A stretch of 64,000 bases of DNA from Octopus vulgaris. Taxonomy: Eukaryota. Where the stretch lies: positions 115,568,001 to 115,632,000 of the forward strand of contig OX597819.1 in assembly GCA_951406725.2 (NCBI GenBank), written 5' to 3'. The position numbers were made by a program, and so were the translations under genes. Under the pieces are notes generated by a model. That model was not told the origin of the DNA. It did no database searches and was given only the letters and a program-made list of their open reading frames with translations. Numbering within the stretch: position 1 is the stretch's first letter; the number at the start of each line of letters is the position of its first letter. This document shows positions 7,671 through 62,742 of the stretch, piece by piece.

Positions 7671-7730
7671 TAATTATTATTATCATCACTGATTTTATTA
7701 TTTTCATTTTTTTTACTATCTGTTATTGTT

Positions 7731-10064
<2,334 letters not shown>

Positions 10065-10107
10065 TCACCTTGTTTTATTTTTTATTACTGATAGAAAAAT
10101 GATACAC

Positions 10108-16885: not shown

Positions 16886-17089
16886 AAGTTAATCCAAACA
16901 TGAAAACATAAACAGAAAACACAACAACGCGAGGACGTGGAACAAATATAGTATTATTGGACGCTCAGGAAAGAAGGAAAGAAGGAGGGTTTAACGTTTT
17001 GAGTGGAGCTCTTCATCAGAAATATAGGAAAAGGAAAGATCCAGAGAAGGGAAGACGGAGGAAAAAAATCGCCAACGGCACTAACGCGG

Positions 17090-20199: not shown

Positions 20200-20470
20200 A
20201 AGTTGTGGCGGGTTGAAGTATTAAGCTGAATGCTGTTGAAGCATTTTCATTTTGTCAAGATTTCAGAATTAGTATTTAAGTGTGTATTAAAGATTCTTAT
20301 AATCCAGAAAATGTGGACCTTCTCAGCTGGGCAGATGTCACAGCATTTGGTTCCTTCTATATTTGGCTACAAAATTTCTAGTATGTTGTACTTGATGTTA
20401 AACTCGTTGCTACAGTCTTTTAAGCTCGGAATGTGATTAATCACTTGATAATTTGGTGGTGTTTCTCTTC
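20200..20470 (-). mobile_element. Probable Penelope-like C-terminal fragment of a second family, inverted against the RT copy
   Basis: Minus strand reads EIL*PNIEGTKCCDICPAEKVHI...LNTNSEILTK, resembling the Penelope C-terminal C.LC..EK..I..LN.RSE motif. Confidence 0.5.
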
Positions 20471-20475
20471 TCACG

Positions 20476-21800: not shown

Positions 21801-24800
21801 TTTTTATTGAAAAATTCCAAACGCTTCTTAATATGCAAACTCCACGGTGACCGTATTCCTTTTTCTAGCATCCTGTCTGACAAAAAATAGATATAAGCAT
21901 CCTGTTTGACAAAAAATTCCAGCATTCCAATTAAAGAGTATAAAATTCACAGAATTGTCTCCCCTGATTCACTGGAACTGGATAACTCATACCCCATTTC
22001 CTGTTTTGACATATAAACATCCAACCTTTTCAAACAAAACATTACACTAAAACGCATGCATCCTAATCCCCCAAAGAAGTTTTTCCATGGACTAACATTG
22101 AACTCTAAAAGCATAAAGACACTACAATGCATTGGTATACTTATTTATTAATTTTTGTATATACTCTTTTACTCTTTTACTCTTTTACTTGTTTCAGTCA
22201 TTTGACTGCGGCCATGCTGGAGCACCGCCTTTAATCGAGCAACTCGACCCCGGGACTTATTCTTTTGTAAGCCCAGTACTTATTCTATCGGTCTCCTTTG
22301 CCGAACCGCTAATTATTTTTTTTGAAAAACATTGTAAATTTCTTTTTTCCCCTTACTCAATTAAAAAAAAAATTCCCTTCCAAATCTTGAAAATTTGCCT
22401 TGCAATGAAAGTCGGTTTGATTTCTCTTTTTTAATTTTTAATGCACCCATTTTTATCAAAATTTACTTTCAGTTTAGCATTCTGCCTTATTATGTTTTTC
22501 TCTCTTACATATATACATATACGCGTGTGTGTATGCATGTCTTTGCATTTGTCCTTCTGCTTAATAACCGGTGTTGGTTTGTATCCATCTCCGTCACCCA
22601 CCAGTTCGAAAAAAGCGTGCAACAAAGACTTATATAAAAATGTACTGGGGCAGATTTGATCAACTAAATCCTTCAAGGTAGTGCCTCAACATGGCCGTAG
22701 TATAATGACTGAGACAAGTAAAAGAATGACTAAAATAATTGCAACGTCTGTAGTTTGTAATTACTTAGAATGAAAATTTTAATAAAATACAAATTTTGTA
22801 GATGTCATTTTAAAACTGATTAAGTTTTAGTAAAATCAGATAATATCCTGTTTTTCTACAATTTATATTTAAAATTAAAATTTTATTTGAAATATATAAT
22901 CTATAGTCTTCTTTATAACACTTCATACTCAATAAAGTAGTTTCATATATTTTTGGTATTTACTGTGTCAGTTCCCAGGTTTCAGATCGCGCGACGAAAA
23001 GTTTGACATCAAATAATGAATAATCAAGTGAAGTTAATAATGTTTCTGTGATTTTAATGGCTGAAATAAGTTTTTCAGTGTAAATTCTTTAGTTTTAACA
23101 CACAATCTTAAATAAAATCAGCTCCGAAATTTCTGATATCTTTCAAATGAAAGCTTTTAGCAAAATCTGTTCAAACTGGAATAAATCTTATGTTGTAAGC
23201 AATAAGCGTCAAACGTTTTGGATAGAATATTTTCGTGGGAAATATTTACCAGAGATACAAGAAAATAGAAAACTAGAATTGTGAGGACGAAGAAAATTAT
23301 TATAATAGAGAATACAGGGGAAAGAGAAGGAAAAAGAGGAGGAAGAGGACGAGAGAAAGAGAGAGGGAGAGAGGTAACATGTGTGTATAGGGGGAGACAA
23401 ATCAGGGAGCAACTCAGTTCTTATCACATCTCCTGATTTCTTCCTTATTCCTTGCTGTTATAATAATTTCCCCTCCCATTCACTTCTAGTTTATTTACCT
23501 TTCAACATTAGTAAACTTTTCATTTCTCACCAACAAAGAGTTCTACCTGAAACTTTAGATTTCTCTTCTTACATATCGCATAACTTTTACTCCGTGACCA
23601 GAACATTTTGTATTACCATTTACCAACATGTGACATCGTTAATTTCTACAAGTTCTTCACTAGTATTAATAAGATCATTGTTGGTGTGTGACAGCGTATT
23701 TTGATACTTTGAAATTTTCTGACAACGGTCATACAACAAAACATCAGATGACAGACTGACAGACGTTTTACTGATCGATAGAACGTCTGTTTTCTGATAT
23801 TTTGATGCGATATAGTTGTAAAACCTCTGTGGGTATTTATCTTTTAATTTCTGGTCATCCACCAGTCAAAGAAAACGTTCAGAGTAACCAATTTCTTTTT
23901 CTGTTGTTACTGGTTGCTTCAAACATCTTTTCTTGATTCATCGATAGACGATGACTCTCGGTGGTTAACAGATGTTATCAAACAAGTGAAATGATATGAC
24001 ATTCCAAAGCTGTTTGGATCAGTATTAAACGTCTGCCCTCATTATACGCAGTCAATATCATTATCGATGTAAAAATTTCTGGTGGCAGTTATTTTCGTGT
24101 TTTAATATCAAAGACCCGGATCTCATTTAGCCTTCAATCGAGCAACGCAAATGTCGGTCTCCTTGATCGATGATTCGAGAATTTTCACACACGCACACGC
24201 GCGCATACACACACACACACGCACTCACACACACACACACGCACACACACACACACACACACGCGCACACACACACACGCGATCGCGCGCACACACACAC
24301 ACACACGCACGCGCTCACGCACACACACACACACACACACACACGTAATTGTTTGTGTACGAACGTATGTTTATATATGAATGTAAGTATGAGTTCTGTA
24401 AAACAAATCGAACATTGTTTGCTTTCTTTACAATTTAATCAGCAATATCTTCTTCAAAATAAGATACTGCACTGTTGATATGCTGATCTCGACTGGTTTG
24501 CCACGTTTGAAACACGTCATCATTAAACACATTTTCAAGAATCACACCCATTTCTCACAATAGATTTTCTTTTCCTTGATGTCTTCAGTTCTCCTGATCT
24601 GGTTAACTTGGATTTCAATTTTAGGTACAAAAACCTACACAGGAGGCAAATCTGATAACTAGGACCATTAACGGAGAAAACGAGAATTGTTTCATGATTT
24701 TCCAGTGCCATGGATAAAGATTGACGGATGCCTATGTGCACAATCTTTGTACATAATCTAAGTTTTATTTGTCCGTAATCCAAGTCTCTTCCTTCGCGAC

Positions 24801-33827: not shown

Positions 33828-33915
33828 ATAAATATTAGGGAATGAATCCAAAATTACAGGTAAAAATAAGATTTAGGGTTAAATCCAATTTTATAGTAAA
33901 ATATTATATAATATA

Positions 33916-34238
33916 ATTCGAGACAAAACCACTATTTTAAAACCAAACAAGGAAAGACTTAATCAATACATAAAATTTTAATATAAATTAAATAAACCGC
34001 CACTACAAATGTTTCATGTCTGCTACCGACAATCTTCAGGTGGATTTTCGATCTTCTAATCAGTATCAAATTTTGACTTCAAAATTTGATACTGATTAGA
34101 AGATCGAAAATCCACCTGAAGATTGTCGGTAGCAGACATGAAACATTTGTAGTGGCGGTTTATTTAATTTATATTAAAATTTTATGTATTGATTAAGTCT
34201 TTCCTTGTTTGGTTTTAAAATAGTGGTTTTGTCTCGAA

Positions 34239-34239
<1 letters not shown>
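33916..34239. repeat. Perfect inverted repeat, 161-bp arms, 2-nt spacer
   Basis: 33916-34076 reads as the reverse complement of 34079-34239; flanked by (TA)n. Confidence 0.95.
34112..34155 (+). ncRNA. Hammerhead ribozyme-like motif inside a perfect palindrome (mirror copy on - strand at 34000-34043)
   Basis: CCAC-CTGAAGA-T-TGTC(GGTAGCA)GACA-T-GAAA-CATTT-GTA-GTGG; stem I CCAC/GTGG, GUA triplet, T-T mismatch at the base of stem II. Confidence 0.62.
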
Positions 34240-34310
<71 letters not shown>

Positions 34311-39509: not shown

Positions 39510-39657
39510 TTACATTATTTACATTATTTACATTCGACGGATATTTGTCCTCATCTTTGTTGTTAACACAACGTTTCGGTTGATATACCCTCCAGCCTTC
39601 TTCAGGTGTCTTGGGGAAATTTCGAACCTGGGTTCTCATTCCTAAGGTATTTTTCGA

Positions 39658-39705
<48 letters not shown>

Positions 39706-39985
39706 CATTATTATTGTTGTTGTTCAGCGCGGGCTACAAACCCCAAGATTCTGAGTTCGATTCCAAGCAGTGACTTGAACAATAACAACAACAACCACAG
39801 CAACAACAACATCGAAAAATACCTTAGGAATGAGAACCCAGGTTCGAAATTTCTCCAAGATACCTGAAGAAGGTTGGAGGGTATATCAGCCAAAACGTTG
39901 TGTTAACAACAAACAAGATGAGGACAAATATCCGTCGAATGTAAATAATGTACATAATTCCTCATCTCTTAAATATAGAACTGTA
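39510..39985. mobile_element. Foldback tRNA-head/(AAT)n/hammerhead element, copy 2 (centre partly deleted), inserted in a SINE
   Basis: Inverted tails at 39510-39660 (-) and 39805-39985 (+); partial head 39727-39777. Confidence 0.78.
39565..39610 (-). ncRNA. Minimal type I hammerhead ribozyme motif
   Basis: GACAC-CTGAAGA-A-GGCTG..CAACC-GAAA-CGTT-GTGTT; core intact, one stem II mismatch. Confidence 0.62.
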
Positions 39986-44714: not shown

Positions 44715-45116
44715 ATACATACGTACGTACATGTGTGTATCCTTGTGTGTGTGTATGAACGGATGGATGCATGTATATGTATATGTGTGCATATGTGCGT
44801 TGTTAGCTCAACACGAAAAATTGGAACGACCCCGCCTCCCCAAGCATAACAGAGTTAAGAATAGAAACAAGATATAGAACGATGTGAAAATGTGAACGTC
44901 AAAGGCGGATTAAAAGTGTTGGGTGACTAAGCTCAATAGAATAATCAATAAAAACTGTGAACAAGAACAGATGGTTCAAAAATATATATCAACTCATTTC
45001 TGAATGAAAACAAGGAAGGATTCATAATGGCAGCTCAGAAGATAGAGTTCTATATTTAGGAATTATGTACATTATTTACATTTGACGGATATTTGTCCTC
45101 ATCTTGTTTGTTGTTA

Positions 45117-45160
45117 ATACAACGTTTCGACTGATATACCCCCCAGCCTTCATCAGGTAT
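45117..45160 (-). ncRNA. Minimal type I hammerhead ribozyme motif
   Basis: ATAC-CTGATGA-A-GGCTG..CAGTC-GAAA-CGTT-GTAT; stem I carries a paired change relative to the other copies. Confidence 0.7.
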
Positions 45161-45213
45161 ATGAGGGAAATTTCGAACTTGGGTTCTCATTCCTAAGGTA
45201 TTTTTCGATGTTG

Positions 45214-45291
<78 letters not shown>

Positions 45292-45421
45292 TCACTGCTT
45301 GGAATCAAACTCGGAACCTTGGGGTTAGTAGCTCTTAACCACTACGCCATATGCCCGTAGCATAATGGTTAAGAGCGCGGGCTACTAACCCCTAGATTCT
45401 GAGTTCGATTCCAGGCAGTGA

Positions 45422-45475
<54 letters not shown>

Positions 45476-45593
45476 GTAATAGTAATAATAATAATAATAA
45501 CAACATCGAAAAATACCTTACAAAACTCAGAATAAACAATCACAGCACATACCAGGACACAGAGCTGCGCCGTAATATAAAAAAAAACTACTG

Positions 45594-45662
<69 letters not shown>

Positions 45663-45696
45663 CCGAATGAGGACCCAAGTTCGATATTTCCCTAAT

Positions 45697-45738
45697 ACAC
45701 CTGATGAAGGCTGGGGTATATCAGCCGAAACGTTGTGT
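45697..45738 (+). ncRNA. Minimal type I hammerhead ribozyme motif
   Basis: ACAC-CTGATGA-A-GGCTG(loop)CAGCC-GAAA-CGTT-GTGT: stem I ACAC/GTGT, 5-bp stem II, intact core, loopless self-complementary stem III. Confidence 0.7.
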
Positions 45739-46241
45739 TAACAACAAAAAAAAAAATGAGGACAAATAACCGTCAAATGTAAATAAAGCTCAGAAGATTT
45801 GTGTCAGAACAAGATATTGTTAGTTGGTAACTTATTTGTTTCTGATTTGGGCCCTAGACAATAGCAGTGAGTTGGTGGAAAAGCTAACACACCGGGGAAA
45901 TTGCTTGGCAGCATTTTCTTCTCTTTACGTTCTGCGTTCAAATTCTGCCGAGGTCCGCTTTGTTTGCATTCTTTCGGAGTCGATAAAATAGGTACCAGTT
46001 AAAACTTGCTGGCCTTGCGCTAAAATTAGAAATTTACAGATACAAGATTTGCAGTTTTGAGGAAACGAGGTTAGTCAATACCATCGATCACAGTCCTTGA
46101 ATGGAACATTATTTTATCGATCCTGAAAGCATGAAAGGCAAACTTGAACGAGGTAGGATTCGAATTCAGTCGGGAGAAATATTGCTAACCATTGTGCCCA
46201 ACGCGTTTACCATTCTTCCAACTCATTGCTTTATTAATACA

Positions 46242-46762: not shown

Positions 46763-46879
46763 TCTATTAAAAACAAAGTGAAGTATAAATGTTATTTGTT
46801 GATTTATCACAAAATATAACTGTGACAAAAAATTGTAGGTGGAAAAAAATTGACTCTTCTGTTTTGTCTTTCCAGCGCC

Positions 46880-47275
46880 ATGTCGATATTAATAGGAATG
46901 GAGAGGAAGGAGAAGAAACGGAGTCTCAGCATTGGCGCTCTCACCACTCTTGTGGAGACACGTCTTCAGGATGGCCTCACAGATGATGAACAAGACTTTC
47001 ACTCAGCTGCGGAAATCGGTGATCTGGAAACGGTCAGACGTCTTGTGGAATCAGGTAAAGTGTCCAGTATCTGCACCGATTCTATGGGCCGCACCTGTTT
47101 GCATGTAGCCACGATTGCCAATGATCCGGAAATGGTTCGCTACTTGCTCGATCTCTATCCAGAGGACTTCACACATTCTGCATTTCTCTGTGCAGTAGAA
47201 AACGATAGAGAGAAACTATGTGACATATTTCTAACACTTCCAATGTATACACTTGACGAAGCAGAACCGAAAATT
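46880..47275 (+). CDS. TRPC-like channel, coding exon 1 (start codon, ankyrin repeats)
   Basis: TTTCCAG acceptor ends 46875, GCCATG start at 46880; [16 protein letters not shown] and [11 protein letters not shown] ankyrin motifs; GTAAG donor at 47276, phase 0. Confidence 0.88.
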
Positions 47276-47302
47276 GTAAGTAGGTTAAACTCTCAATCAT
47301 TC

Positions 47303-47339
<37 letters not shown>

Positions 47340-47351
47340 ATCAGTCAGTCC

Positions 47352-47444
<93 letters not shown>

Positions 47445-47461
47445 CCTACCTACCTATCTCT

Positions 47462-47551
<90 letters not shown>

Positions 47552-47627
47552 CCTATCTCTTCTCTCTCTCTCTTTTTTTTTCTCTCTCTCTCTATCTATC
47601 TACCTATCTACCTACCTACCTATCTCT

Positions 47628-47694
<67 letters not shown>

Positions 47695-47899
47695 CTATCT
47701 ATTTATCAGTCTATTATTTGTATTAAAACTAAGTTGAAATATTCTTTGCATCATAACTATTTGGAATAATGCTAAACTTTACCTATAAGTTGTAAGTATT
47801 TATAGCTAGTTCGGTTGATATGAGAATTAACTGCCCATGGGGGTTGATTGGTGACGGTGACCCTGGTGCAGGCAGCGCAGGGGAGTAGATGATACTAAG

Positions 47900-48135
47900 G
47901 TGGTATATCCGGGTTGTCGACGGCCAGTGACTCGAAATCTACCAGTGGGGCATAGCTCTGGTGACAGCGATAAGATAGATCGTACTTCGCGTTGATGGAT
48001 ACTGCGGGTTGGTAGAGGATGTGCAGGTTTTCGCAGAGGCAGGGCCGACAGTTAAGGGCGCCAAGTGAATATGGTGGCGCCCTGTCGACAATAGTCCACT
48101 TGATGGTGGGTGTTTCGTGTCGGAGGTCACGGAGT
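47900..48135 (-). mobile_element. Penelope-like C-terminal fragment
   Basis: IKWTIVDRAPPYSLGALNCRPCLCENLHIL...INAKYDLSYRCH. Confidence 0.65.
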
Positions 48136-48295
48136 CTTCCTCTCTCTCTCTTGCTCTCTCTCTCTCTTGCTCTCTCTCTCTTGCTCTCTCTCTCTCTCTC
48201 TCTTGCTCTCTCTCTATATATACATATGTATGTATGTGTGTGTGTATATATATATATATATACATACATGTATGATATATATATATATTATATAC

Positions 48296-48329
<34 letters not shown>

Positions 48330-48527
48330 TATAAAGGAATATGATTCCAAACTTACAGGGAATTACTAACTATATATTATTTATTTATTATTTAGTACTT
48401 TACTTAGTTCTAAGTAAATGTTTTATCGTATCTTTAATATTTTTCTACATGGTATGATTTAAGTATATCATTGTTGAATTGCTTCTCTAATTTATATACA
48501 TGTATTATACATACATACATACATACA

Positions 48528-48613
<86 letters not shown>

Positions 48614-48781
48614 GTATGTGTGTGTATTTGTTTAAAATCTAAGAGTCATGAAAAGCTCATGTATTGATTAATAAAGTGGATATATTATTGGCAATTCCTT
48701 TCAGGTTTTACTGATGACTGTTGTGGGGGGTTCTCAACTCTTGGTGTGAATCCGATTGATTGTTATGGAAACGTAGTAACG

Positions 48782-48868
<87 letters not shown>

Positions 48869-49006
48869 CACCACCATGACGCGTACTTATGATTGTGATG
48901 CATGTGCCTGGTGTACCCTTATCAGACGGGTAGTCATGATGGGTATACTGGGCTTCGTATATTTTACCCCAGTGTCACTTTGATGGCATGCACTGCTCTC
49001 TCACTC

Positions 49007-49059
<53 letters not shown>

Positions 49060-49909
49060 TAAAAATAATAATAGTAATAATAATAACAACAACAATGATA
49101 ATTATTATTTATAACACACACACTCATGTAAAATATAAAGTCAGAATCCGTAAGATGTGAATACATTACCATATGATTTACATATATACAAACATACATA
49201 CATATATACACGCATAATACATACATACATACATACATACATACATACATACATACACACATGCACACACATGTATATACATTATTATATAAGCTGTAGA
49301 TAAGTTTACATGCGTATGCAGCACATGCAGGCTAAACAGATGTTTACTTAAAATACGAATATACACTCACACTTATATATAGCCTGTCTCAGTACATTGA
49401 TTAATACAAGTAATACGAATAAATAAAATAAATGTAAACATGTTTAAAGGTCTATGTTTATGTGTGAGAAAACATAAAGGTGTCGATGTGATTTGGTGTA
49501 GTTTATCTCTTGGTCAGATCTAAAATCGAAGGCATTTTTGCCGTGATCTTCATAACATTTCTTTAGTCAGTGTATCGATTACTTTGAGCAATTTGTTCTT
49601 TAGAACGTGATTGGAAGCTATTTGTGGGGCGACATGCAGAGTGGTTTTTATGTGTTGAATGGTGATACATATAAAGTGACTATTAAAATTAATTTTCGAG
49701 TCATAAGGTTACAAGTGAACGGTTCACACGTCCAACTTTTTTTTATCGTATTAAATGAATGAGGGAAATCTTGGACAGAAAGCTGCTCTAGTGTACGTAA
49801 CTTCATCCAAATGATGAATATCATTCAACTCTGAAAACCAATATGCTATACGTCAATAGAACGTTGTTAACTTTAGATATCATTCGTATGATCAAACCAT
49901 ACGTTTTTT

Positions 49910-50040
49910 GGCTCTTTACCTTTTGACCGACAGATTTAAAAAATAATTTTTTGTAACTAAACACTTTCAAACTTCAGACACTGGTAGAATGTGTCATATA
50001 AAATTATTTTTTAAATCTGTAGGTCAAAAGGTAAAGATCC
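49910..50040. mobile_element. 131-bp related MITE with GG(A/C)TCTTTACCTTTTGACC TIRs
   Basis: Long TIRs; TSD CGTTTTTT / CGTTTATT; shares the AAACTTC..ACTGGTAGAATGTGT core with the larger family. Confidence 0.78.
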
Positions 50041-51053
50041 CGTTTATTCAGACAAACAAACCTGACGTGATAGTAGAAATGAATTTTTATAATTCTGTCT
50101 GAACTGCAATTCATTCTGGGCAGGAAAAAATCTCTTAAGAAAATCGATAAATCAAATGGATTTCAAAACTTCATACTATTTCATGTGCAAAGAAACTTCC
50201 TGGAACTTGATCGAGGAGTATATAAGTCGTGCTATCTTCTTTGAAACTCAACTTAGTTACGTAGACATTGAGATGATATAAATTTAAAAGAATGCAGCGA
50301 GCTGGCAGAAACGTTAGCACGCCGGACGAAATGCGTAGCCGTATTTCGTCTGCCGTTACGTTCTGAGTTCAAATTCCGCCGAGGTCGACTTCGCCTTTCA
50401 TCCTTTTGGGGTCGATAAATTAAGTACCAGTCATGCACTGGGGTCGATGTAATCGACTTAATCCCTTTGTCTGTCCTTGTTTGTCCACTCTATGTTTAGC
50501 CCCTTGTGGGTAGTAAAGAAATAGATATAAATTTAAAAGCAAGTGAAATGTATAGAGGTGTGTTATACCAGCATATGGTATCTACTTACCCCTTAGTGGA
50601 ACTGATTCGCGTGAGTGAGTGATAGCCATGTGATGGACACAAGGGGTAATAAGTTCTCAGATCTTTGCCCTAGGAGCTTATCGACTTGCTCTTATACATT
50701 TGATATGCGAAACACGTAAGAGACGCTAGAATCCAGACATACTAGAAATAGTTGCTAAATCTTCCTCGAACTTCAACCGTACTTCTGTTATATGGTTCTG
50801 CAGGATGACTTATCTAACTCATTTATAGTATTGTTAAAGGCAGTGAGCTGACATATTCATTAGCATGACAGAGAAAGTACTTAGCGCCATCTCACCCGTC
50901 TTTAAGTTCTGAGTTCAAATTCCACCAAGGTCGACTTTGCCTTTCGTCCTTTCTGAATCGATAAAATAAGTATCAGTTAAACACCGAGGTCGATGAAATT
51001 GACTTATCTCCTTCTCTCATAATTTCAGGTATTGTGCCTATAGTAGAAAGGAT

Positions 51054-51482
51054 TGATCTTTTCGGTTTGAACGGCAATTTTTTAAAATAATTTCCACGTA
51101 ACTAAACACTTTTAAACTTCGTATACTGGTAGAAAGTGTTTATAAAACATCTTTTTCTCTTGGCTTTATTGAGAAAATTCTATAGTATGTAAGATATTTG
51201 TATTTTTCTTCAATTTCTGCAATTTCAACCAATCAATGACGTCTACAGAGGTGAAAACATTCTGTGCCGTATGAATATATCCCTTGTTTAAGAAACAGAT
51301 TGGGTTTATTTACATTTCTGAAGAATAAAAGATACCCTTTCCCACACCCCTAACCCTAACCCTAACTAACCCTAACCCGAAAACAGATTGAAATGCAATA
51401 GATCGATACCAGGGTGATAATTATGGGTGACAATTTCATATGACACCGCTAGAAAAAACTGCCATTCAAACCGAAAAGATCC
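51054..51482 (+). mobile_element. MITE with GGATCTTTTCGGTTTGAA TIRs (Merlin-like)
   Basis: 8-bp TSD GAAAGGAT on both sides; internal (CCCTAA)-like repeats. Confidence 0.85.
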
Positions 51483-51521
51483 GAAAGGATTTATAATGTT
51501 GTTGTATTTGTTTCTTTTTAG

Positions 51522-51866
51522 CCGGAGAAAACCACAGAATCAAGCAACGAGAAATCAGAAACGGTGCGAAGGTTACTTCGTGAAGCTCTGATAATTGCAG
51601 CCACACAAAACAATTTCTTGATCGTCAAAAAGCTGATGCTGCGTGGCATCTTGTTGGACATGCCACACGAATACTTCTGCATGTGTAAAACATGCAGTGT
51701 GGCCAGGTCTGAAGATTTTATGAGATTTACAAACGGTAGACTCGATGCTTTTCGCGCCATTGCTAGTCCAGCTTATCTTGTTTTAACGGAGCGGGATCCT
51801 ATTGTGGCGGCATTTCACCTCAGCGAAAGATTCCGGAAAATGGCAGAGATTGAAACAGAATACAAG
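51522..51866 (+). CDS. TRPC-like channel, coding exon 2 (ankyrin end and TRP_2 zinc-binding motif)
   Basis: AG/GT bounded, 345 nt, phase 0/0; PHEYFCMCKTC (TRPC H-x3-C-x-C-x2-C), RLDAFRAIASPAYL, DPIVAAFHLS, EIETEYK. Confidence 0.93.
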
Positions 51867-53113
51867 GTAGAGTGCAGTCGCGAATTGTTTTAATCAAGCA
51901 CACACACAAACACCCACGCAAGCACACACATACACAACCACATTAACACACAGATACACACACTCATGCGCACACATACACAGACACACGTACATTTCAT
52001 ATGTTAAAGATTGAGAGAGGATACAAGGCAGAGGTGCACTTACATTTCTATACATACACAGACAGACACACGGTTATACACACAGAAGCGCATACACACA
52101 CATCCGTACACACACATCCGTACACACACGCCCGTACACCTCCTGCGCGCGCACACACACATTTCAAATTCTACTTACCGCTCGCCAACTTACAGGATGT
52201 TTCATTTGTAGGATAACATAGCTGAATAGAGAATAAACAGGATATAGAATATAGCTAAGAGAAGCGTTTGAGTTCGGTGTGGAGTGGCATGTGTGGATAC
52301 ATGCGTGTGTGAATATGTGAGAGTCAGTATTAAGTGACATAGGGATAGGAACGAAAATACGAAGGGGAAATGCTACAATGAATTCCTGGGAAGAATATTG
52401 CAGTCACTCCATTGGACTCTTGCTAACATTCCTACTTTATATATATATATATTTATAGATAAGTATAATATCGATATTTAAATATCGATCTTATCAAGTG
52501 GCCAGCATGGGAATGAATACCATACAAAGGTAATAATTATTTAAAACTATAAACAAGGGTATCCGAAAGATAACACCATGCCGAAATAGCAGTCAGAACC
52601 CTGATCCTAAAAACCACCTTAAAAGTTCATATCGCGCCATGAGATAAGACAGAGAGACAAAATAAACTAGCAAAAAAGATTTTACTGGATAATTCAAGAT
52701 CCTGGATTTCTGACTTTGCTTCAAATAAGCTCTACCTTCGTCAGTTGAATATACCAGATGGGCACATGAATACAAATATATATATATACAGAACATACGT
52801 TAAGCGTCGAATGTGGTTGGTATTTTGCAGAGAAGAAAGTAAATTCGAACGCAGTAAAGCTGTAAGCAGAGAACGGTTGGGTATTTACCATTATAAGACG
52901 GACAAAAGTTGCTAGCTGGCGGCTACGAGAGTCAAATCTGTACCCCTCAAATACCGGCAGAATGCTCTAACCATCGGTGTCCGAGGCGTACAGCTTCGAC
53001 GCCTGTAGCCACCTGCTGATTACTTTTTTCCGACTTATAAGGAGTAAATACCTAATCTTTCTCTGCTGATCTTACTAAGCTTTACTGCGTTCCAAATTTA
53101 ATTCCTTGTCTGC

Positions 53114-53195
<82 letters not shown>

Positions 53196-53242
53196 GCATA
53201 CATATGTATATATCTGTCTAATCTATCTATTTTATTTCTCAG

Positions 53243-53410
53243 CAAGTCTACTACGAATTGGATTCCCAAGTACAAGGATTTACTTTAGATTTATTAGCCG
53301 AGTGCCAAAGTTCGGAAGAGGTGCGCATACTTCTTGGAGTTGATCCCGGCGTGGAGAGACCCGACACGTTGCCTTTGATTAACATGGGCCTCGTCTATCA
53401 ACAAAAAAAG
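53243..53410 (+). CDS. TRPC-like channel, coding exon 3 (linker helices)
   Basis: TTTCTCAG / GTAAGT, 168 nt; QVYYELDSQVQGFTLDLLAECQSSEEVRILL...YQQKK resembles TRPC Y.EL..QC..FA.DLL...RSS.E...IL...YEQKK. Not in the ORF track. Confidence 0.9.
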
Positions 53411-54489
53411 GTAAGTGTTCATTAGAGCCATTAGACTAAATATCAGTAAGGCTAAATATATATATATATAGGAAGTTCGTGGAGGTGCAATGGCCCAGTG
53501 GTTAGGACAGGGGACTCGCGGTCGGAGGATCGCGTTTCGATTCCCAAACCGGGCGTTGTGTGTGTTTATTGAGCGAAAACACCTTAAAACTCCACGAGGC
53601 TCCGACAGAGGGTGGTGGTGACCCCTGTTGTACTCTTTCGCCACAACTTTCTCTCAATCTCTCTTCCTGTTTATTGAGTAACGCGTCCCGTCCTGCTGGG
53701 TAGAGCACATACGCCACAGAAACCGGGAAATCGGACCCATGAGCCTGGCTAGGCTTGAAAAGGGCAACGTTTATCGTTTTTTTTATTTAGGAAGTTCAGT
53801 TCGCAATCATTAGGCTCCATGTTCGATCTCTTGCTTCAAATCTTGTTCAAATGTCTTTTTGTTTTTTTTACCGTAGTATTGAGACAATTTAATCATTGAT
53901 AGTGAAGTCGAATGGACGGAAACTGTGTGGAAGTCTGTAGTTCAAGGAGTCAACTTTGTTGCACGGTTTCTCGAGGATTATGTTAACGTTACAAGTGTAC
54001 GTGGAATACTTATCCATTAGGATATATTTTAATGAGAGTGTGTAACTTAGTTGATGGAAGTATCGGAATAGTCATCGTTGAAACCGACGAAGGACTCATT
54101 TTGATAATTTTTCTGTCTATTGACCAACTTGCTCTTGTATTCATTTCTTGCTTGCTTCATTATCGATATCTGACATGTTCGAATACATTTCAGGTTTTAA
54201 TTGAAACAACCTCATTATATTTCATAGATTAACATCCCGTGACTTATAACAAATTTCCAAATCTTTTCACATCTCGCAATAACTGTTCAACTTTTTCGTT
54301 TCTCCCGACTGTCCAATTTCACTCTTCTCTTAAAACAACGGTCGAAGTTTTTCCATATTTCACAACAACGTCCAGTTTCTTTCATATCTTCAAAATGTCC
54401 ATATTTTTCTCACAGCCGTTCATATATTCATATATCTCACAGTTGTCAATTCTATTTATATTTTACAACTCTCCAATTTTTTCCAACAG

Positions 54490-54657
54490 TTCCTTGCTCA
54501 TCACAAGTGCCAGAGTCAAGTCGCTCAATTATGGTATTCTGGAGTTCCAATCCTTAGATACCTCAATAACTTTAAGTACTTAGTAATGAGCATTCCAGTC
54601 GGTATGATTCTAATACCCGTCTTGTCTATGGTCTACATAATCACTGGATATGGAAAG
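54490..54657 (+). CDS. TRPC-like channel, coding exon 4 (pre-S1 elbow)
   Basis: TTTTCCAACAG / GTAAGT, 168 nt; FLAHHKCQSQVAQLWYSG matches TRPC FVAHPNCQQ.L...WY.G. Not in the ORF track. Confidence 0.9.
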
Positions 54658-55997
54658 GTAAGTATACATTTCAGTCTCCCTAATTGTCAAATATTTTGAT
54701 TAAAATAGTCATTCTCTATTAGTATGTATAACAAACCCTTAAGAACTGAGATACTGTATTACTGTTTTATCAATATACAGTGCAACCTGACAATTGTTGC
54801 ACTTTCTCGCAAATTAAAGCAGCGATATGTATTCTTTTCTACTCTAGGCACAAGGCCTGAAATTTTTGGGGGAGGGGGCCAGTCGATTAGATCGACCCCA
54901 GTACGCAACTGGTACTTAATTTATCGGTCCCGAAAGGATGAAAGTACAAAGTCGACCTCGGCGGAATTTGAACTCGGAACGTAAAGAATACTATGAGTAC
55001 AAAAATGTAAAGCTCACAGACAAACTCATTGTATTCACGTTGTTAATGTATATTGCTACTACGTCTGTCTTTACGTTCTGAGTTCAAAATTCCGCCGAGG
55101 TCGACTTTGCCTTTCATCCTTTTGGGGTCGATAAATTAAGTACCAGTTGTGTACTGGTTGATCTAATCGACTGCCCCCCTTCCCCCAAAATTTCGAAACT
55201 TGTGCCTAGAGCAGAAAAGAATAAGAGCTTTAAGGACTTCTAAATTAGTTGTTAATATAGATTTCAACTTTGTCACAAGGCCAGCAAGTTCGGGGGAAGG
55301 GATAAGTCAATTACATCGACCCCAGTGTTCAACTGGTACTTATTTTATTGACCCTGAAAGGATGAAAGGCAAAGTCGAACCCAGTGGAATTTGAACTCAG
55401 AACGTAAAGACGGACGAAATATCACTAAGCATTTTACTCAGCATGCTAACAATTCTACTCTATAATTGTTGGTTGTTCCTTCTCGAGCTATGCCTGGCTC
55501 ATTAGGGCCGGTTTCCCGGTTTCCTTGGCATATAGGTTCCCCACCTGAACGGAACGCCGGTCCGTCGCAGGTGAGCTGCAAGATGCAGGAGGAGAGAGTG
55601 AGAGAAAGTTGTGGCGAAAGAGTCAGCAGAAGTTCGCCATTACCTTCTGCCGGAGTCGCATGGAGCTTAGGTGTTTCGCTCATAAACACACACATCACCC
55701 GGTCTGAGATTCGAACCTGCGATCCCTCGACTGCGAGTCCGCTGCTCTAACCACTAGGCCATGTGTCTCCATTCTATAGTTAATATAGATTATTAATGCA
55801 CTATTCGTGCATCTTTACGATCTGTGTTCAAATTCTACTGCTGTCTTCTTTGCCATTCATCTTTTCGGATAATGTAAGAACTAGTCGAGTACTAGGGTTG
55901 ATGTAATCGGCCTATCCGACTCTCCTGAATTTGCTGGCCTTGTGCCAAAATTTACAATCAATATGGACCATTAAAAACTATACTTCTTGTATTGCAG

Positions 55998-56181
55998 GTA
56001 TTCAACTTTCTCAACACTCCAATAACGCGCTTTTTAAGCTACACCACGTCCTATTTTACATTTCTTTTGTTGATGGTTTCGTCAAAGCTGTCACTAAGCG
56101 ACAACTGGGCCAGTATTTCTTGCCGTGGTATTGATGTGACGATGACAATATTTATTATAGTACTCTCAATGTGGCTCATAG
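55998..56181 (+). CDS. TRPC-like channel, coding exon 5 (S1 and start of S2)
   Basis: TTGCAG / GTAATT, phase 0/1; TPITRFLSYTTSYFTFLLLM matches TRPC [20 protein letters not shown]. Confidence 0.9.
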
Positions 56182-56297
56182 GTAATTTCAATTCATTAAA
56201 CCCTTGAACCCCCCCCCCCCCAAAAAAAAACCCAGTCCGTGAAAATGTCTAGAGTTCAATAAAATAGTTAAGTTAATTACCCTCCCCGACTTTCTCC

Positions 56298-56393
<96 letters not shown>

Positions 56394-57420
56394 ATGGCGC
56401 ATGGCTCAGTGGTTAGAGGATCGTGAGGTTGTGGGCTGCGTGTTGTGTTCTTGAGCAAGACACTTTATTTCACGTTGCTCCAGTTCACTCAGCTGTAGAA
56501 ATTAGTTGCGACGTCACGGGTGCTAAGCTGTATCGGCCCCTTTGCCTTTCCCTTGGATAACACGGGTGGCGTGGAGAGGGGAAGCCGGTATGCATGGGCG
56601 ACTGCTGATCTTCCATAAGAAACCTTGCCCGGACTTGTGCATGGGAGGGTAACATCCTAGGTGCAATCCCACGGTCATTCCTGACCGAAGGGGGTCTCCG
56701 CATATATAAGTTCAGATGAATATGGTACTTAAGTTAAAGGCACCAGAATTTGGTATGGTATTATCCATATAAATCAAATGAGGTAATTATAATCAAAATA
56801 AGCAACAAGGATATCCAAGGTAGTGTAGTACAATCGTTTCATGCTTCATATATATATATATATATAAATGATTTTTGTTATAAACGAAAGGATGTGTGCT
56901 CTATGTATGCCGAGTACGGTTAATACATATCATGAAACAGCTGATCACTCATACCGATGATACTCAGAATGTTTCCTTCATCGTGCATGTGGTCAGTTTA
57001 ACGTTACCTGAAATTCTGAGCAGATATATATGGTTTTCGAACCAAAGTCGACAGTTTGCCTAGAAGGAAAACAAAACGCTGCTCTCCATGTCACGCCTTA
57101 GAGCCTTTACAGTGTTCACAGGCCATTGAACAACAAGATTAAACCAGAACTTTAATCTTTTTGCTTCCCAACACCGGTAACTCTTTACTGATACATAAGT
57201 TATTCTTGACTCCCCCCTGCCCCCCACCAAAGAAAATAAAAAAACAAAAACGAAGCAAAACAAAAAAGACACAAAACCCTGTCAAATTCAACCTGAATAC
57301 CCTTAAATGTATATATGTATGTATATCTGTCTGTCTATCTATCTATCTATCTTTCTTGCCGTGGTATTGATGTGACGATGACAATATTTATTTTAACACT
57401 CTCAATACATACATACATAC

Positions 57421-57473
<53 letters not shown>

Positions 57474-57516
57474 ATAATAAGTGTAGATCGTATACGAGTG
57501 GGTATATATTTATAAA

Positions 57517-57962
57517 AAAGAAGTTTGAAAACGCCACTATATAAGATAAATTTTAATTTTTTTAGAAATTTTACATGTTTTGGTTCTTCTTGAAGAAACG
57601 AACCTTATCAAAAATATTTTAAAAAGTTAAGTGTAATAAAAGAGTTCATAATTGTTTCTTACTGGTCTCAACAGAATCCATGTGGTGGTGTTTTGTCGGT
57701 AGTAAGCATAATAGCTGTAAGTTTAAAGTTGAGTGTAATAAAAAAGTTCATAATTGTTTCTCAACATTCGGACACATAAGAGAGCTAAAAACAACCACGT
57801 GGATTCTGTTGAGACCAGTAGGAAACAATTATGAACTTTTTTATAACACTTAACTTTTTAAAATACTTTTGATAAGGTTCGTTTCTTCAAGAAGAACCAA
57901 AACATGTAAAATTTCTAAGAAAATTAAAATTTATCTTATATAGTGGCGTTTTCAAACTTCTT

Positions 57963-57964
<2 letters not shown>
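57517..57964. repeat. Imperfect inverted repeat, about 175-bp arms and 90-bp spacer, between (TA)n tracts
   Basis: AAAAGAAGTTTGAAAACGCCACTA...CAACAGAATCCA mirrored by TGGATTCTGTTG...TAGTGGCGTTTTCAAACTTCTTTT. Confidence 0.9.
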
Positions 57965-58036
<72 letters not shown>

Positions 58037-58193
58037 GTGAAATACACATCCCTTCTCTCACCTTTTAATTGCTTCTCTCTTTCTTCCCCCCTCTCTCTCT
58101 GTATATATATATATATATAGTCTCTGTGTTGACCTGTTCACTGTAAATCTACTGCTGACCTCACTTTGCATGTATTTTTTTTTATCAATGCAG

Positions 58194-58466
58194 GTCTCAT
58201 ATGGGAGGAATGTAAGCAGATATTGGAAGCAGGTCCTCTGAATTATTTCTCATCTTTATGGAACATATTGGACTCGTTTATGCTCAGTTTCTTACTCACA
58301 TCTTTCCTGGTTGATGTGGTGGTGTCGTTTAGACTTCAACATGTCTTTCAGAATGAGAGAAAAATCAAAAATATGTATCGCAACAAATCAGTTATTCTGC
58401 CTGCTTGCGACTGGGATTTGAACTCGGGAGATTATTGCAGCAAAACGCGTGACTACGATATTGTTG
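58194..58466 (+). CDS. TRPC-like channel, coding exon 6 (S2-S3 and S3-S4 loop)
   Basis: TGCAG / GTGAGT, phase 1/1; GLIWEECKQILEAGPLNYFSSLWNILD is the TRPC W.E.KQ....G...Y....WN..D motif. Confidence 0.93.
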
Positions 58467-59737
58467 GTGAGTTTAAATGTATTCTGTCTACATTGTCACT
58501 TTCCTATGCTTATGTTGTCTTTTCATGTTGTAACATCTCTTTTCTGTAGTGGTTTTACCTATCTAATATATTTAACTCAGCAAATAGCAGAAACGTTAGC
58601 ACGCCGGCCAAAGTGCTTATCAGTATTTCGTCTGCCGCTACGTTCTGAGTTCAAATTCCACCGAGGTCGACTTTGCCTTTCATGCTTTCGGGGTTGATTA
58701 AATAAGTACCAGTTACGCACTGGGATCGATATAATCGACTTAATCCGTGTGTCTGTCTTTGTTTGTCCTCTCTGTGTTTAGCTCCTTGTGGGTAGTAAAA
58801 AAATAGGTATTATTAAAATAACAAGACCGTCCACCATTGTACCAATGCAAACGTGTTCGCGGCATTCTTTTCCGTCCTTACTTTCTGAGTTCAAATTCTG
58901 CCGAGGTCGGCTTTGCATTTCATCCTCTCAGGGTCAATAGAATAAGTCCCGGCTGAGCACTGGAGTCGATGTAATTGACTATCCGCCTCTGCAAAATTTC
59001 AGGCCTTGTGCCTAAAGTAGAAACAATTATTAAAATGACCGTCCAACTAACACACGTGACTAGTAATCAAGCAATTCGGACTGGCAACTAATAACCAAGC
59101 AACCACCACGTGACCAACACTCAGCTAATTATCATATCGACATTTTATTCCTTCTGCCGATAAGATTGATGTAATTAATGCCCAACTTTTAAGTTTTCAA
59201 TGGTTTATATTAACATCAATAAAGCGGCGAGCTGGCAGAAACGTTAGCACCCCGGGCGAAATGCGTAGCCATATTTTGTCTGAGTTCAAATTCCCGCCGA
59301 TGTCGACTTTGCCTTTCATCCTTTCGGGGTCGATAAATTAAGTACCAGTTAAGCATTGGGGTCGATGTAATCGACTTAATCCGTTTGTCTGTCCTTGTTT
59401 GTCCCCTCTGTGTTTAGCCCCTTGTGGGTTGTAAAGAAATATAATTTCACTAGCTCCAGTTAATTTGAGCTGTTAACACGCTTTAATCAACGATTCTTAA
59501 TCCTCTTGAATATTTAATCTCAATGCTGTAGGCATGACTGTGTGGTTGAGCAGCTTGCTTCTCATCCATGTGGTTTGGGGTTCAGTCCCACTGTGCAGCA
59601 CCTTGGGCAAGTATCTATAAAAGGTTAAAATAAAAGACTGATAGATTAGCAGAGGTAAGAGAAAAGAGATCTGTGTTGTCCATTTACTCCCCACTCAACA
59701 CATTTACTTATTTGGTACCATTTTTTTTTCTTTGTAG

Positions 59738-59999
59738 TCAGTTGGTCGCCAGTATGGTCACCGGACCCAGAACTGGTATCTGACGTTTGTTTCTCTCTTG
59801 GGATCTTGCTTTCGGTTTGTCGAATTGCATTCTTGATGCCTTGTAATGAGACTTTCGGAACTATGTTGGTATCTTTTTACCGGACACTCATGGACTTGTT
59901 CAAGCTTTGTGGCATGTTCGCTCTTGTCCTGATCGCCTTTACATGCAGCATTGCTGCCCTTTACAGCGCCCTTAAATGCAACACAGAATCATTCAGCAG
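59738..59999 (+). CDS. TRPC-like channel, coding exon 7 (S4, S4-S5 linker, S5)
   Basis: TTTGTAG / GTAAG, phase 1/2; DPELVSDVCFSLGILLSVCRI...NETFGTMLVSFYRTLMDLFK...VLIAF. Confidence 0.9.
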
Positions 60000-60209
60000 G
60001 TAAGATTAATTTATTTCATTTTGACTTAATCTTCCGTTTTTGATAGCAGTATTTCTTTACGCTCTGAATTTACATCTTGCTGCAGTAGACTTTGCCTTTC
60101 ATCGGGTTGGAATCTATATAATAGGCACGAGTAAAATATATCCCGAATCAATTTAAGCGATTGTACCACTCGCTCCAAATGACTGGCATTGTGTCTTAAA
60201 TACAAATCA

Positions 60210-60535
60210 ACCGACCGACCGTGGTCGAGACAATGGAATTTACCATGCTACGCCACACTTCACGGTCCATCATGGCATTACGGAGGTCCTGTTGCTGGAT
60301 GCCTGTATCCCTGGAGATTACATCAGGGTAGGAGAGTGTGCGCCCTCTGGTATTGCGAGTAGATGGCTTCCAGAGGAGAAGAGTAGAAATTACTTCTTTT
60401 TCAGCTCTACAACAATGTCCAGCAAACTGGATTCTCTTACCTTTCACAAGAGATGACACAGGTGGTAGGTTCCCATATATTTGCATTTTGGTTGGATGGC
60501 GCTTCCACGAGAGATTTTGAGCTTGTTATTCCACC
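60210..60535 (-). mobile_element. RTE-like LINE 3' fragment in TRPC intron 7
   Basis: Same family as 13725-13980 (RIQFAGHCCR..DREVWR). Confidence 0.8.
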
Positions 60536-60568
60536 TTGAATAACACCACTTGTCTCTTGTTATTCCAG

Positions 60569-60806
60569 CGTCGCTAACACCATCGTCTACTTAATGTGGG
60601 GTACATTTGGAATGAGTGATTCAAATGCTCCTGATCTTGATCTCAATGGACAACCAATGCATTCGCTGATCAATAACTTCAACGCTAAACGGAACGTCAC
60701 GGTGGCTCTTGGTTATATGCTCTACGGCACATTTATATTCGCCTCAACCATTGTACTCATCAATCTCCTTATCGCTGTTATGTCGAACACGTTCCAAGAG
60801 ATACAA
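60569..60806 (+). CDS. TRPC-like channel, coding exon 8 (pore helix, filter, S6)
   Basis: TTCCAG / GTAAGT, phase 2/0; YLMWGTFG (TRPC LFWSIFG) and IVLINLLIAVMSNTFQEI (S6). Confidence 0.93.
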
Positions 60807-61090
60807 GTAAGTTATCTTAAATTGCTATCTTTTTGCACTCCTAGTCATTTACGGCACCGTCTTCAGTTTTGTTATTTCAACCCATTTCAACCCCCAAATA
60901 ATTCATGGAAAGACATAAGCGCACTGCAACTAAATGTATAGACCGTATCTGAAACGAGTGGGAGACGTTTTTGCGCAATCGTTTGGGTGCCACGTACAGT
61001 GTGCTCTGGTTGGATTTGACAATTTGCATAAAAAGAAAACACAACAACCCATCCAAAAATAAAACTATTTTAAAAAATCAAAAAAATATC

Positions 61091-61523
61091 GGATCTTTTC
61101 GGTTTGAACGGCAGTTTTTTCTAGCGGTGTCATATGAAATTGTCACCCATAATTATGACCCTAGTATCGATCTATTGCATTTCAATTTGTTTTATGGTTA
61201 GGGTTAGTTAGGGTTAGGGTTAGGGGTTGGGGGGAAGGGTATCTTTTTTTCTTCACAAATGTAAATAAACCCAATCTGTTTCTTAAACGAGGGACATATT
61301 CATACGGCACAGAATGTTGTTTACCTCAATGGACGTCACTGATTGGTTGAAATTGCAGAAATCCAAGAAAAAAACAACAAATATCTTACAAACTATAGAA
61401 TTTTCTCAATAAAGCCAAGAGAAAAAGATGTTTTATAAACACATTCTACCAGTATACGAATTAAAAAATTTTTCAGTTACCTAGAAATTATGTTAAAAAC
61501 TGCCATTCAAACCGAAAAGATCC
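61091..61523 (-). mobile_element. Same MITE family, opposite orientation
   Basis: TIRs present; TSD AAAATATC / AAAACATC. Confidence 0.85.
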
Positions 61524-61634
61524 AAAACATCAACTATATTATGGCTGGGAGATAACAGTTTACTCAAAGTACCTCTACTCAGCTTCCACCACGGCATCAA
61601 GACGGCTCCAGAACCTAGCGCATACTTCCTGCTG

Positions 61635-62170
61635 GCCACGGTTTTATACTCTCAAGCCTCTTCTCTTCTCCTTATCTCCTCAAAGACATACAGCACCTCG
61701 AAAGAGTCCAGAGGCTGGCTACCCGCATGGTTCATGGTCTCAAAAATTTGTCCTACGAAGAAAGGCTGAGGACGCTCGACCTTTGTTCTCTTGAAAAACG
61801 CCGCCGCCGTGGTGATCTCATTCTCGCCCACAACATCATAAGCGGGAAGTGTAACCTCTCGAAAGAGCTGTTCTTCACTCCTGCTCCGGAGCGTCGGCTG
61901 CGGGGTCATTCCGAAAAGCTCTACCTGCGACGATTTCATCTCAATCGAAGGAGAGGAGCTTTCTCCGTCCGGGTTGCGGATCCGTGGAACAAGCTGCCAG
62001 ACGAGATGGTGAAGATGCCGACGACCGCTTTGTTCAAAGCCTCCCTGGACCTCAAGTGGCCTGAACTCTTTACATGAACACCACCCTGTACTTAACTCCA
62101 TGTCCCCCTACATGGCCTTGCTATTTGCTTTTGAGCCAAATTAACTAACTAACTAACTAACTAACTAACT
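61635..62170 (+). mobile_element. CR1-type LINE 3' end with (TAAC)n tail
   Basis: LSYEERLRTLDLCSLEKRRRRGDLI..LRGHSEKL..FSVRVADPWNKLP; tandem TAAC tail at 62141-62170. Confidence 0.88.
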
Positions 62171-62297
62171 CTCAGGTGCAGCTTTTCATGTCACTTCTTA
62201 CAGCCTTTACTGTGTGTCCATGCACAGAGTATTTGGGCAGTAGTCATGATGCCGGCATTTTGACACCCGGCGTGAAAACTCGTGATACAGGTAACTC

Positions 62298-62742
62298 GGA
62301 TCTTTTCGGTTTGAACGGCAGTTTTTAACATAATTTCTAGGTAGCTAAAACATTTTAAACTTCGTATACTGGTAGAATGTGTTTATAAAACATCTTTTTC
62401 TCTTGGCTTTATTGAGAAAATTCTATAGTTTGTAAGATATTTGTTGTTTTTTTCTTCAATTTCTGCAATTTCAACCAATCAATGACGTCCATTGAGTTAA
62501 AAAGCATTCTGTGCCGTATGAATATATCACTCGCTTAAGAAACAGATAGGGTTTATTTACATTTGTGAAGAAAAAAAGATACCCTCCCCCCACCAACACT
62601 AATCCTAACCCTAACTAACCCTAATTAACCCTAACCCTAAAATAGATTGAAATGCAATAGATCGATACTAGGGTCATAATTATGGGTGACAATTTCATAT
62701 GACACCGCTAGAAAAAAACTGACGTTCAAACCGAAAAGATAC
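62298..62742 (+). mobile_element. Same MITE family
   Basis: TIRs present; perfect 8-bp TSD GGTAACTC. Confidence 0.88.

What the first reader, a model, noticed from the sequence alone, without database searches (positions are those of the whole stretch)
45117..45160. Paired substitution in hammerhead stem I and a stem III that can only form in a dimer
Seen: stem I is ACAC/GTGT at 45697 and 39565 but ATAC/GTAT here, so both partners changed. Stem II variants mostly keep G-U pairing. After GAAA comes CGTT with no loop, so stem III (self-complementary ACGU) cannot form within one motif. An extra A follows CUGAUGA. Copies near 9966 and 39859 have GAAA changed to AAAA at a CpG. Known: minimal Penelope hammerheads can cleave as dimers, and an extra nucleotide after A9 occurs in some viroid hammerheads. 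Inference: the two outward transcripts of one element could pair in trans and cleave after GUU.
Basis: partly seen in the sequence, partly recalled or inferred. Interest (0 to 1): 0.7.

Follow-up and report, generated by a model that had tools for sequence, protein, structure and literature searches.

The report
Decaying Penelope hammerhead, chance double mutation
This stretch is one aged copy, among thousands, of an already-described minimal hammerhead motif (predicted to cut RNA only as a pair) in the end repeat of a Penelope-type jumping gene; its two matching mutations occur together no more often than chance, so it is ordinary, and the only unusual trait is a tRNA-derived segment at the start of that repeat.

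Summary
The sequence is as described, but the paired stem I change is not covariation. Exact genome-wide counts are 955 (neither change), 43 and 28 (one each) and 2 (both), against 1.3 expected (p=0.38). In 149 copies not chosen on the motif, core and stems decay about like the flanks. The motif lies in the 3' pseudo-LTR of a Penelope/Poseidon-type element and overlaps its ORF's first codons. 45032-45798 is one head-to-head insertion with a 12-bp target duplication and a tail on one end, the published Penelope pattern. The extra A, the palindromic stub for stem III and dimer-only cleavage are in Cervera & de la Pena 2014. In the dimer fold stem I is intermolecular, so pairing with the partner arm gives an A-C mismatch. 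The unusual part is a tRNA-Arg-like head in the repeat, where 70 of 90 copies begin. This suggests Pol III transcription or snap-back (untested); the scan noted it before on other DNA (e1-8669850).

The parts
45117..45160 (-). Minimal type I hammerhead motif (the finding); predicted cut after GUU, between 45121 and 45120; three private changes (two in stem I, one G-U in stem II)
45045..45215 (-). Left arm: 3' part of the Penelope pseudo-LTR, equal to the first ~52 codons of the element's ORF; long-tail end with an 8-nt deletion
45216..45287 (-). (AAT)n tract between head and arm
45286..45360 (-). Left tRNA-derived head; A box intact, B box altered at a CpG
45360..45427 (+). Right tRNA-derived head, 5'-truncated in the A box, B box intact
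45499..45520 (+). First 22 nt of the right arm
45521..45660 (+). Secondary insertion: 3' end of a non-LTR element like the one ending near 7851, plus (AAT)n
   Evidence: by eye; the Dong/R4 label is recalled
45661..45786 (+). Right arm, short end, with its hammerhead at 45697-45738
45032..45043 (+). Left copy of the 12-bp target-site duplication
45787..45798 (+). Right copy of the 12-bp target-site duplication
39514..39985 (.). Second head-to-head insertion of the same family; both arms carry the N7=A subfamily allele
7733..10065 (.). Third insertion, split by a non-LTR element at 8220-9710; hammerhead at 9967-10010

Best explanation
The motif is a minimal, likely dimer-dependent hammerhead in the 3' pseudo-LTR of a Penelope/Poseidon-type retrotransposon, and this copy is a 5'-truncated, head-to-head insertion whose two stem I changes most likely arose independently by neutral decay after insertion. 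Shown: the head-(AAT)n-arm follows the stop codon of an RT + GIY-YIG ORF; in a near full-length copy the arm also runs in frame into the ORF's N-terminus; insertions carry a short target duplication and a ~30-nt tail on one end only; the two arms of one insertion usually share subfamily alleles. Inferred: the element's protein nicked both strands about 12 bp apart and copied one source RNA into two outward-facing halves (priming at two tail sites, or fold-back at the hairpin at the head's 5' end). In the active ancestor, two hammerheads in a tandem transcript, probably helped by the element's protein, swapped strands through ACGU and cut after GUU. Today's copies are passengers.
For: Independence of the two changes: 955/43/28/2, p=0.38. 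Substitution rates in 149 unselected arms, core vs flank: CpG 15.6 vs 15.6%, other G/C 6.9 vs 8.1%, A/T 3.1 vs 2.8%; only 28 of 149 keep core and both stems. The partner arm of this insertion shares other private changes with it but has ACAC/GTGT. 20 of 90 head-selected loci continue upstream into a GIY-YIG-type C-terminus. 25 of 29 ORF-selected loci have the head just after the stop and 26 of 29 have the arm. Homologues carry PF00078 and PF26215, and one is named from Octopus sinensis at 73%. L312/L333 shows arm-into-ORF continuity, as in PAc (PMC11167929). Of 26 pairs typed at both ends, 23 are long+short, 3 short+short and 0 long+long (p=4e-5); 19 of those 26 have a junction repeat of 11-17 nt (no shuffled control). 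The pattern is published (PMC3846280; PMC8557442).
Against: Non-CpG G/C positions in the stems vary slightly less than in the flanks (6.3 vs 8.1%), and the wobble-keeping single change is commoner than the pair-breaking one (43 vs 28, p=0.10); a weak constraint is not excluded. Only one near full-length copy shows the arm-ORF junction (1 of 29 loci), and it lacks the head upstream. No intact ORF was found (longest open frame 569 aa among 300 scored hits). 8 of 75 pairs disagree at N7, so one template is not universal; time-separated subfamilies or gene conversion could also give concordance. Cleavage was not tested.
Confidence: 0.85

Rival explanations
1. One reading: the double change is compensatory, and the two outward transcripts of this insertion pair in trans and cleave after GUU.
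For: Both changes do restore a pair within one copy, and ACGU is intact in both arms. Family sequence is present in RNA-seq reads. Minimal hammerheads show some cleavage in linked dimers (PMC4209133).
Against: No covariation. The left+right dimer has an A-C mismatch and is 12 kcal/mol above the free monomers. Promoter boxes are damaged in both heads. No reads lie on this copy's unique flanks in 3 runs. A read-through transcript folds into a hairpin that pairs 40 of the 44 motif bases with the other arm. Published activity is low even in cis, and PAc needed its protein.
Confidence: 0.05
2. The short copies are a self-propagating, Pol III-transcribed SINE-like offshoot: the tRNA-derived head drives a ~270-nt RNA that the Penelope protein retrotransposes. 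This is compatible with the best explanation and concerns how the short copies arise.
For: The head aligns end to end with host tRNAs, best tRNA-Arg(TCG), z=7.7 against shuffles (30 tRNAs tested). 70 of 90 heads lack the upstream ORF end, against about 2% expected from a crude truncation rate. 26 of those 70 start with ATATGCCC and none with the parent's AATTGCCC. The sense strand of the arm has no T4 run.
Against: The same pile-up and the ATATGCCC extension follow from reverse transcriptase folding back at the TGCCC-AC-GGGCA hairpin; palindromes at inverted junctions are known (PMC3846280). Short and ORF-linked copies share the same alleles and similar divergence (5.5 vs 6.6%), so no separate lineage is evident. 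No Pol III data.
Confidence: 0.35
3. A non-LTR retrozyme propagating through circular RNA.
For: Type I hammerhead in a short dispersed repeat; one tandem array of a ~215-bp unit exists.
Against: Copies are inverted pairs tied to an ORF, not tandem monomers. The motif is minimal, not canonical. The one tandem array lacks the cut site.
Confidence: 0.05

Closest known systems
Minimal hammerheads (min-HHR) of metazoan Penelope-like elements, Cervera & de la Pena 2014 (PMC4209133; read parts 1-2 of 4: abstract, results, discussion, start of methods)
   Same: Type I, 4-bp helix I, unpaired nucleotide between 9 and 10.1, G10.1-C11.1, palindromic 15.2-16.2 with no loop III, thousands of dispersed copies, opposite-strand pairs 100-700 bp apart, dimer model
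   Different: Helix II is 5-6 bp here (7-8 in Schistosoma); the passages read name no octopus family and no tRNA head
Poseidon_Ac (PAc) of Anolis, Frangieh et al. 2024 (PMC11167929; read parts 1-2 of 4, main text)
   Same: Hammerhead overlaps the ORF start; the tail lies in the first codons and has two end points; both strands are cut and extended
   Different: PAc is active and its hammerhead cleaves only with protein; this family's ORFs are all broken in the copies seen; no tRNA-like head is mentioned for PAc
Adineta Pen2a/Pen3a insertions, Arkhipova et al. 2013 (PMC3846280; passages), and the PLE scheme in Craig et al. 2021 (PMC8557442; passages)
   Same: Inverted 5'-truncated pLTR, 8-10 bp target duplication, 30-40 bp tail at one end, palindrome at the inverted junction, pLTR includes the first codons
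   Different: There a TATA/Inr-like Pol II promoter is proposed; 'tRNA' has 0 occurrences in PMC3846280
Schistosoma SM-alpha SINE-like elements with hammerheads (via review PMC6765202, passages)
   Same: Internal promoter followed by a hammerhead in a short repeat
   Different: Those carry canonical hammerheads in tandem repeats; here the unit is the end repeat of an ORF-bearing Penelope
Lunse, Weinberg & Breaker, RNA Biol 14:1499 (title seen in a reference list only; text not held)
   Same: The title states that small Penelope-associated hammerhead variants cleave as dimers
   Different: Could not check whether it lists this family or tests trans cleavage

Membership tests
Minimal PLE hammerhead (min-HHR) | Core CUGANGA ... 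GAAA ... UH, type I | tested here: met
Minimal PLE hammerhead (min-HHR) | Extra nucleotide between 9 and 10.1; G10.1-C11.1 | tested here: met
   A in 143 of 149; G-C in 111 and G-U in 22 of 142
Minimal PLE hammerhead (min-HHR) | Palindromic 15.2-16.2, no loop III | tested here: met
   ACGT intact in 78 of 149, the rest decayed
Minimal PLE hammerhead (min-HHR) | Self-cleavage as a dimer | not testable with these tools
   Fold energies only; ordinary RNA-seq showed no end pile-up but cannot be expected to
Minimal PLE hammerhead (min-HHR) | Covariation among copies | tested here: not met
   within one family only, not across families
EN+ Penelope-like element, Penelope/Poseidon type | Single ORF with RT and C-terminal GIY-YIG-type endonuclease | tested here: met
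   Motifs read in broken copies; homologues carry PF00078/PF26215. Direct Pfam scans of two fragments gave no relevant hit
EN+ Penelope-like element, Penelope/Poseidon type | pLTR overlapping the ORF start, hammerhead inside | tested here: met
   One near full-length copy, L312/L333
EN+ Penelope-like element, Penelope/Poseidon type | Inverted 5'-truncated copy, tail at one end, short TSD | tested here: met
EN+ Penelope-like element, Penelope/Poseidon type | Clade placement by RT phylogeny | not tested
   The clade label rests on recalled motifs and domain order
tRNA-derived SINE | tRNA-related head with A and B boxes | tested here: met
   ARAGORN and Rfam do not call it a tRNA
tRNA-derived SINE | Independent lineage separate from the autonomous partner | tested here: inconclusive
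   5' pile-up but alleles shared with ORF-linked copies
tRNA-derived SINE | Pol III transcription | not testable with these tools
   Libraries unstranded and randomly fragmented
Non-LTR retrozyme | Tandem monomers each with an intact canonical type I hammerhead | tested here: not met

The most novel reading that the evidence does not exclude
This Penelope family captured a tRNA-Arg-derived Pol III promoter at the start of its pseudo-LTR and thereby spawned a Penelope-mobilised SINE: short Pol III RNAs, held two at a time by the palindromic hammerhead and loaded on the dimeric protein, were inserted as head-to-head pairs. The recurrent 3-nt deletion over the cut site (~10% of arms) would then be the scar of reverse transcription across self-cleaved RNA.
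Probability: 0.2. Interest if true: 0.6.

Novelty: new member of a known kind. Interest (0 to 1): 0.22.

Why it matters
As flagged, little: it shows that a single apparently compensatory change in a high-copy repeat needs counts before it is read as selection, and that for strand-swapped dimers within-copy pairing is the wrong test. The family is a large natural record of Penelope insertion (one long and one short end, ~12-bp stagger, arms from one source) that fits the in vitro PAc mechanism. If the tRNA head proves to be a working Pol III promoter, it would be a route from a Penelope element to a SINE; I found no paper on that in three searches, returning only general papers that I did not all read.

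Tried and rejected
Rfam found no hammerhead or tRNA at E<=5 in the window or at E<=10 in four loci; ARAGORN found none. These models do not cover the minimal motif. The intact 753-aa Penelope-like family related to window 20424-21759 was tested as the partner and rejected: no arm similarity (best E 0.67) and no hammerhead by my pattern in 30 loci. 'Independent SINE head' was rejected: the head sits at a fixed place behind the ORF. The top-40 BLAST loci were not used for rates, being selected for likeness to this copy. RNA: no RNA holder listed. Three raw RNA runs of one study, about 6% of each read, gave 4,679-6,503 reads on a typical 301-nt copy, equal on both strands, with no pile-up of ends and none on this copy's flanks; such libraries cannot show 5'-OH ends. 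The many A>G differences cannot be read as editing because other copies are mixed in. The 3-nt deletion over the cut site as a cleavage footprint is not supported so far: it is on long and short arms alike (12 and 12 of 24), mostly in one arm of a pair (15 discordant, 4 concordant), and an AAC unit nearby is lost about as often (~14 vs ~19 of 183 by my count). One search used wrong coordinates and is void; one search timed out. Lunse et al. could not be read. No supplements were opened; supplementary alignments of PMC4209133 or the repeat library of PMC13282606 may already contain this family.

Full report
Observation. The 44 bases at 45117-45160 read on the minus strand as a type I hammerhead: stem I 5' strand, CUGAUGA, an extra A, a 5-6 bp stem II, GAAA, CGUU and the stem I 3' strand. 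Five family copies lie in the window (9967, 39566, 39860, 45117, 45697) plus fragments at 2473 and 7733.

Is the paired change more than chance? Four exact 44-mer searches of the 2.8-Gb genome gave 955 copies with neither change, 43 with C>T only, 28 with G>A only and 2 with both. Independence predicts 1.26; Fisher p=0.38. I then collected 149 distinct arms from loci chosen by the head, by the tail or at random (34 stretches of 10 kb), plus the window. Substitution rates in the catalytic core match the flanks class by class (CpG 15.6 vs 15.6%, other G/C 6.9 vs 8.1%, A/T 3.1 vs 2.8%); 50 of 149 keep the core and 28 keep core and stems. Stem G/C positions are slightly less variable (6.3%), the one hint of constraint. 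G-U retention in stem II is mostly CpG decay at C11.1. The other arm of the same insertion shares other private changes with this one but not these two, so they most likely arose after insertion.

What the repeat is. Each half reads head - (AAT)n - arm. The head aligns from base 1 to host tRNAs, best tRNA-Arg(TCG), z=7.7 among 30 tRNAs. In 90 head-selected loci, 76 have the arm downstream; several of the other 14 break off at the (AAT)n into other retroelement sequence. Twenty of the 90 continue upstream into one shared sequence that translates to a GIY-YIG-type C-terminus. Conversely, of 29 loci chosen by that protein (the query's own locus left out), 25 have the head just after the stop and 26 have the arm. 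Upstream lie reverse transcriptase motifs; the homologues listed (best 120 of 266) mostly carry PF26215, some also PF00078, and one is named from Octopus sinensis. In one near full-length copy the arm runs in frame into the ORF N-terminus, so the hammerhead overlaps about codons 8-22. All ORF copies seen are broken. The host is inferred to be an octopus from genome size and that homologue.

How it inserted. Of 26 head-to-head pairs typed at both ends, 23 have one long and one short end, 3 short+short (two are one duplicated locus) and none long+long; 19 of 26 have an 11-17 nt repeat at the junctions (p=4e-5). The insertion holding the finding has a perfect 12-bp duplication at 45032 and 45787. 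In 82 pairs from all loci the arms agree at subfamily sites (N7: 67 of 75, odds ratio 88) and share 25 other non-CpG variants against 10.8 +/- 3.1 in shuffles, yet differ by 8.4% overall. So the halves usually come from one source and then decayed separately, though age-separated subfamilies or gene conversion could contribute. An inverted truncated copy, a tail at one end and a short duplication are the published Penelope signature (PMC3846280 passages; PMC8557442 passages). PAc cuts and extends both strands and starts at two sites that define the tail (PMC11167929).

The dimer claim. Cervera and de la Pena describe the extra nucleotide, the palindrome, dimer folding, opposite-strand pairs, no monomer activity and low dimer activity (PMC4209133). 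In the strand-swapped dimer, stem I pairs one RNA's 5' strand with the other's 3' strand, so a within-copy double change helps only a homodimer. With the partner arm it gives an A-C mismatch; the active fold scores -8.3 kcal/mol (left+right) and -8.9 (left+left) against -18.1 for typical copies, all above the free monomers (nearest-neighbour model). A transcript through the whole insertion would fold back and pair 40 of 44 motif bases. Neither head keeps both boxes. RNA-seq holds family reads but cannot assign them to this copy or show cut ends.

What remains unusual. Seventy of 90 copies with an intact head lack the ORF end upstream, where a crude rate from candidate counts (5,690 vs 2,252) predicts about 2%. 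Twenty-six of the 70 begin ATATGCCC and none with the parent's AATTGCCC. Either the head is a Pol III start that yields a SINE-like RNA, or reverse transcriptase folds back at the hairpin there; these data do not separate the two. Searches for a Penelope-mobilised tRNA SINE found nothing relevant, and two octopus repeat papers contain no mention of hammerheads in their main text.

Verdict. A real but known motif in a dead copy; the paired substitution is coincidence; trans cleavage by this pair is unlikely. Interest 0.22.

Noticed in passing
family-wide; e.g. L337-L361: A recurrent 3-nt deletion across the predicted cut site in about 10% of arms (305 exact matches; 10-11% of RNA reads), on both subfamily backgrounds and mostly in one arm of a pair. 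Slippage is the simpler reading.
   Followed up: partly
L361-L366 (G000:C2 near 2.734 Mb): Tandem array of a ~215-bp unit (AAT tract + arm with long tail, no head), every unit seen lacking the cut site.
   Followed up: partly
family-wide, hammerhead position N7: The only common core polymorphism (U/A at N7) is also a conservative Asp/Glu change in the overlapping ORF.
   Followed up: no
window 8220-9710 and 3860-7730, minus strand: Non-LTR retrotransposon copies (RVT_1 + zf-RVT; Dong/R4-like by recalled motifs) inserted at the (AAT)n tract and in the arm of this family; they split other copies too.
   Followed up: partly
window 20424-21850; L104-L132: Broken copy of a second Penelope-like family that has many long open frames elsewhere (753 aa, RVT_1 + GIY-YIG), often as head-to-head pairs; no hammerhead found by my pattern in 30 loci.
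   Followed up: partly
window 16985-17025, minus strand: A lone hammerhead-like motif of another family with G12 changed to A.
   Followed up: no
window 33914-34240: Near-perfect ~325-bp palindrome containing CUGAAGA, likely a head-to-head insertion of another Penelope-type family.
   Followed up: no
window 57503-57977 and 61230-62591: Further inverted-repeat elements; the second has short telomere-like repeats at its ends and flanks an RT fragment.
   Followed up: no
window 46826-60941, plus strand: Exons of a TRP-type channel gene (ankyrin, TRP_2, Ion_trans); the insertion lies about 1 kb before the ankyrin exon. A ligand-gated channel exon lies at 673-1548.
   Followed up: partly
window 2262-2760: A truncated arm (2473-2551) sits between two diverged ~200-bp direct repeats (seen by eye).
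   Followed up: no
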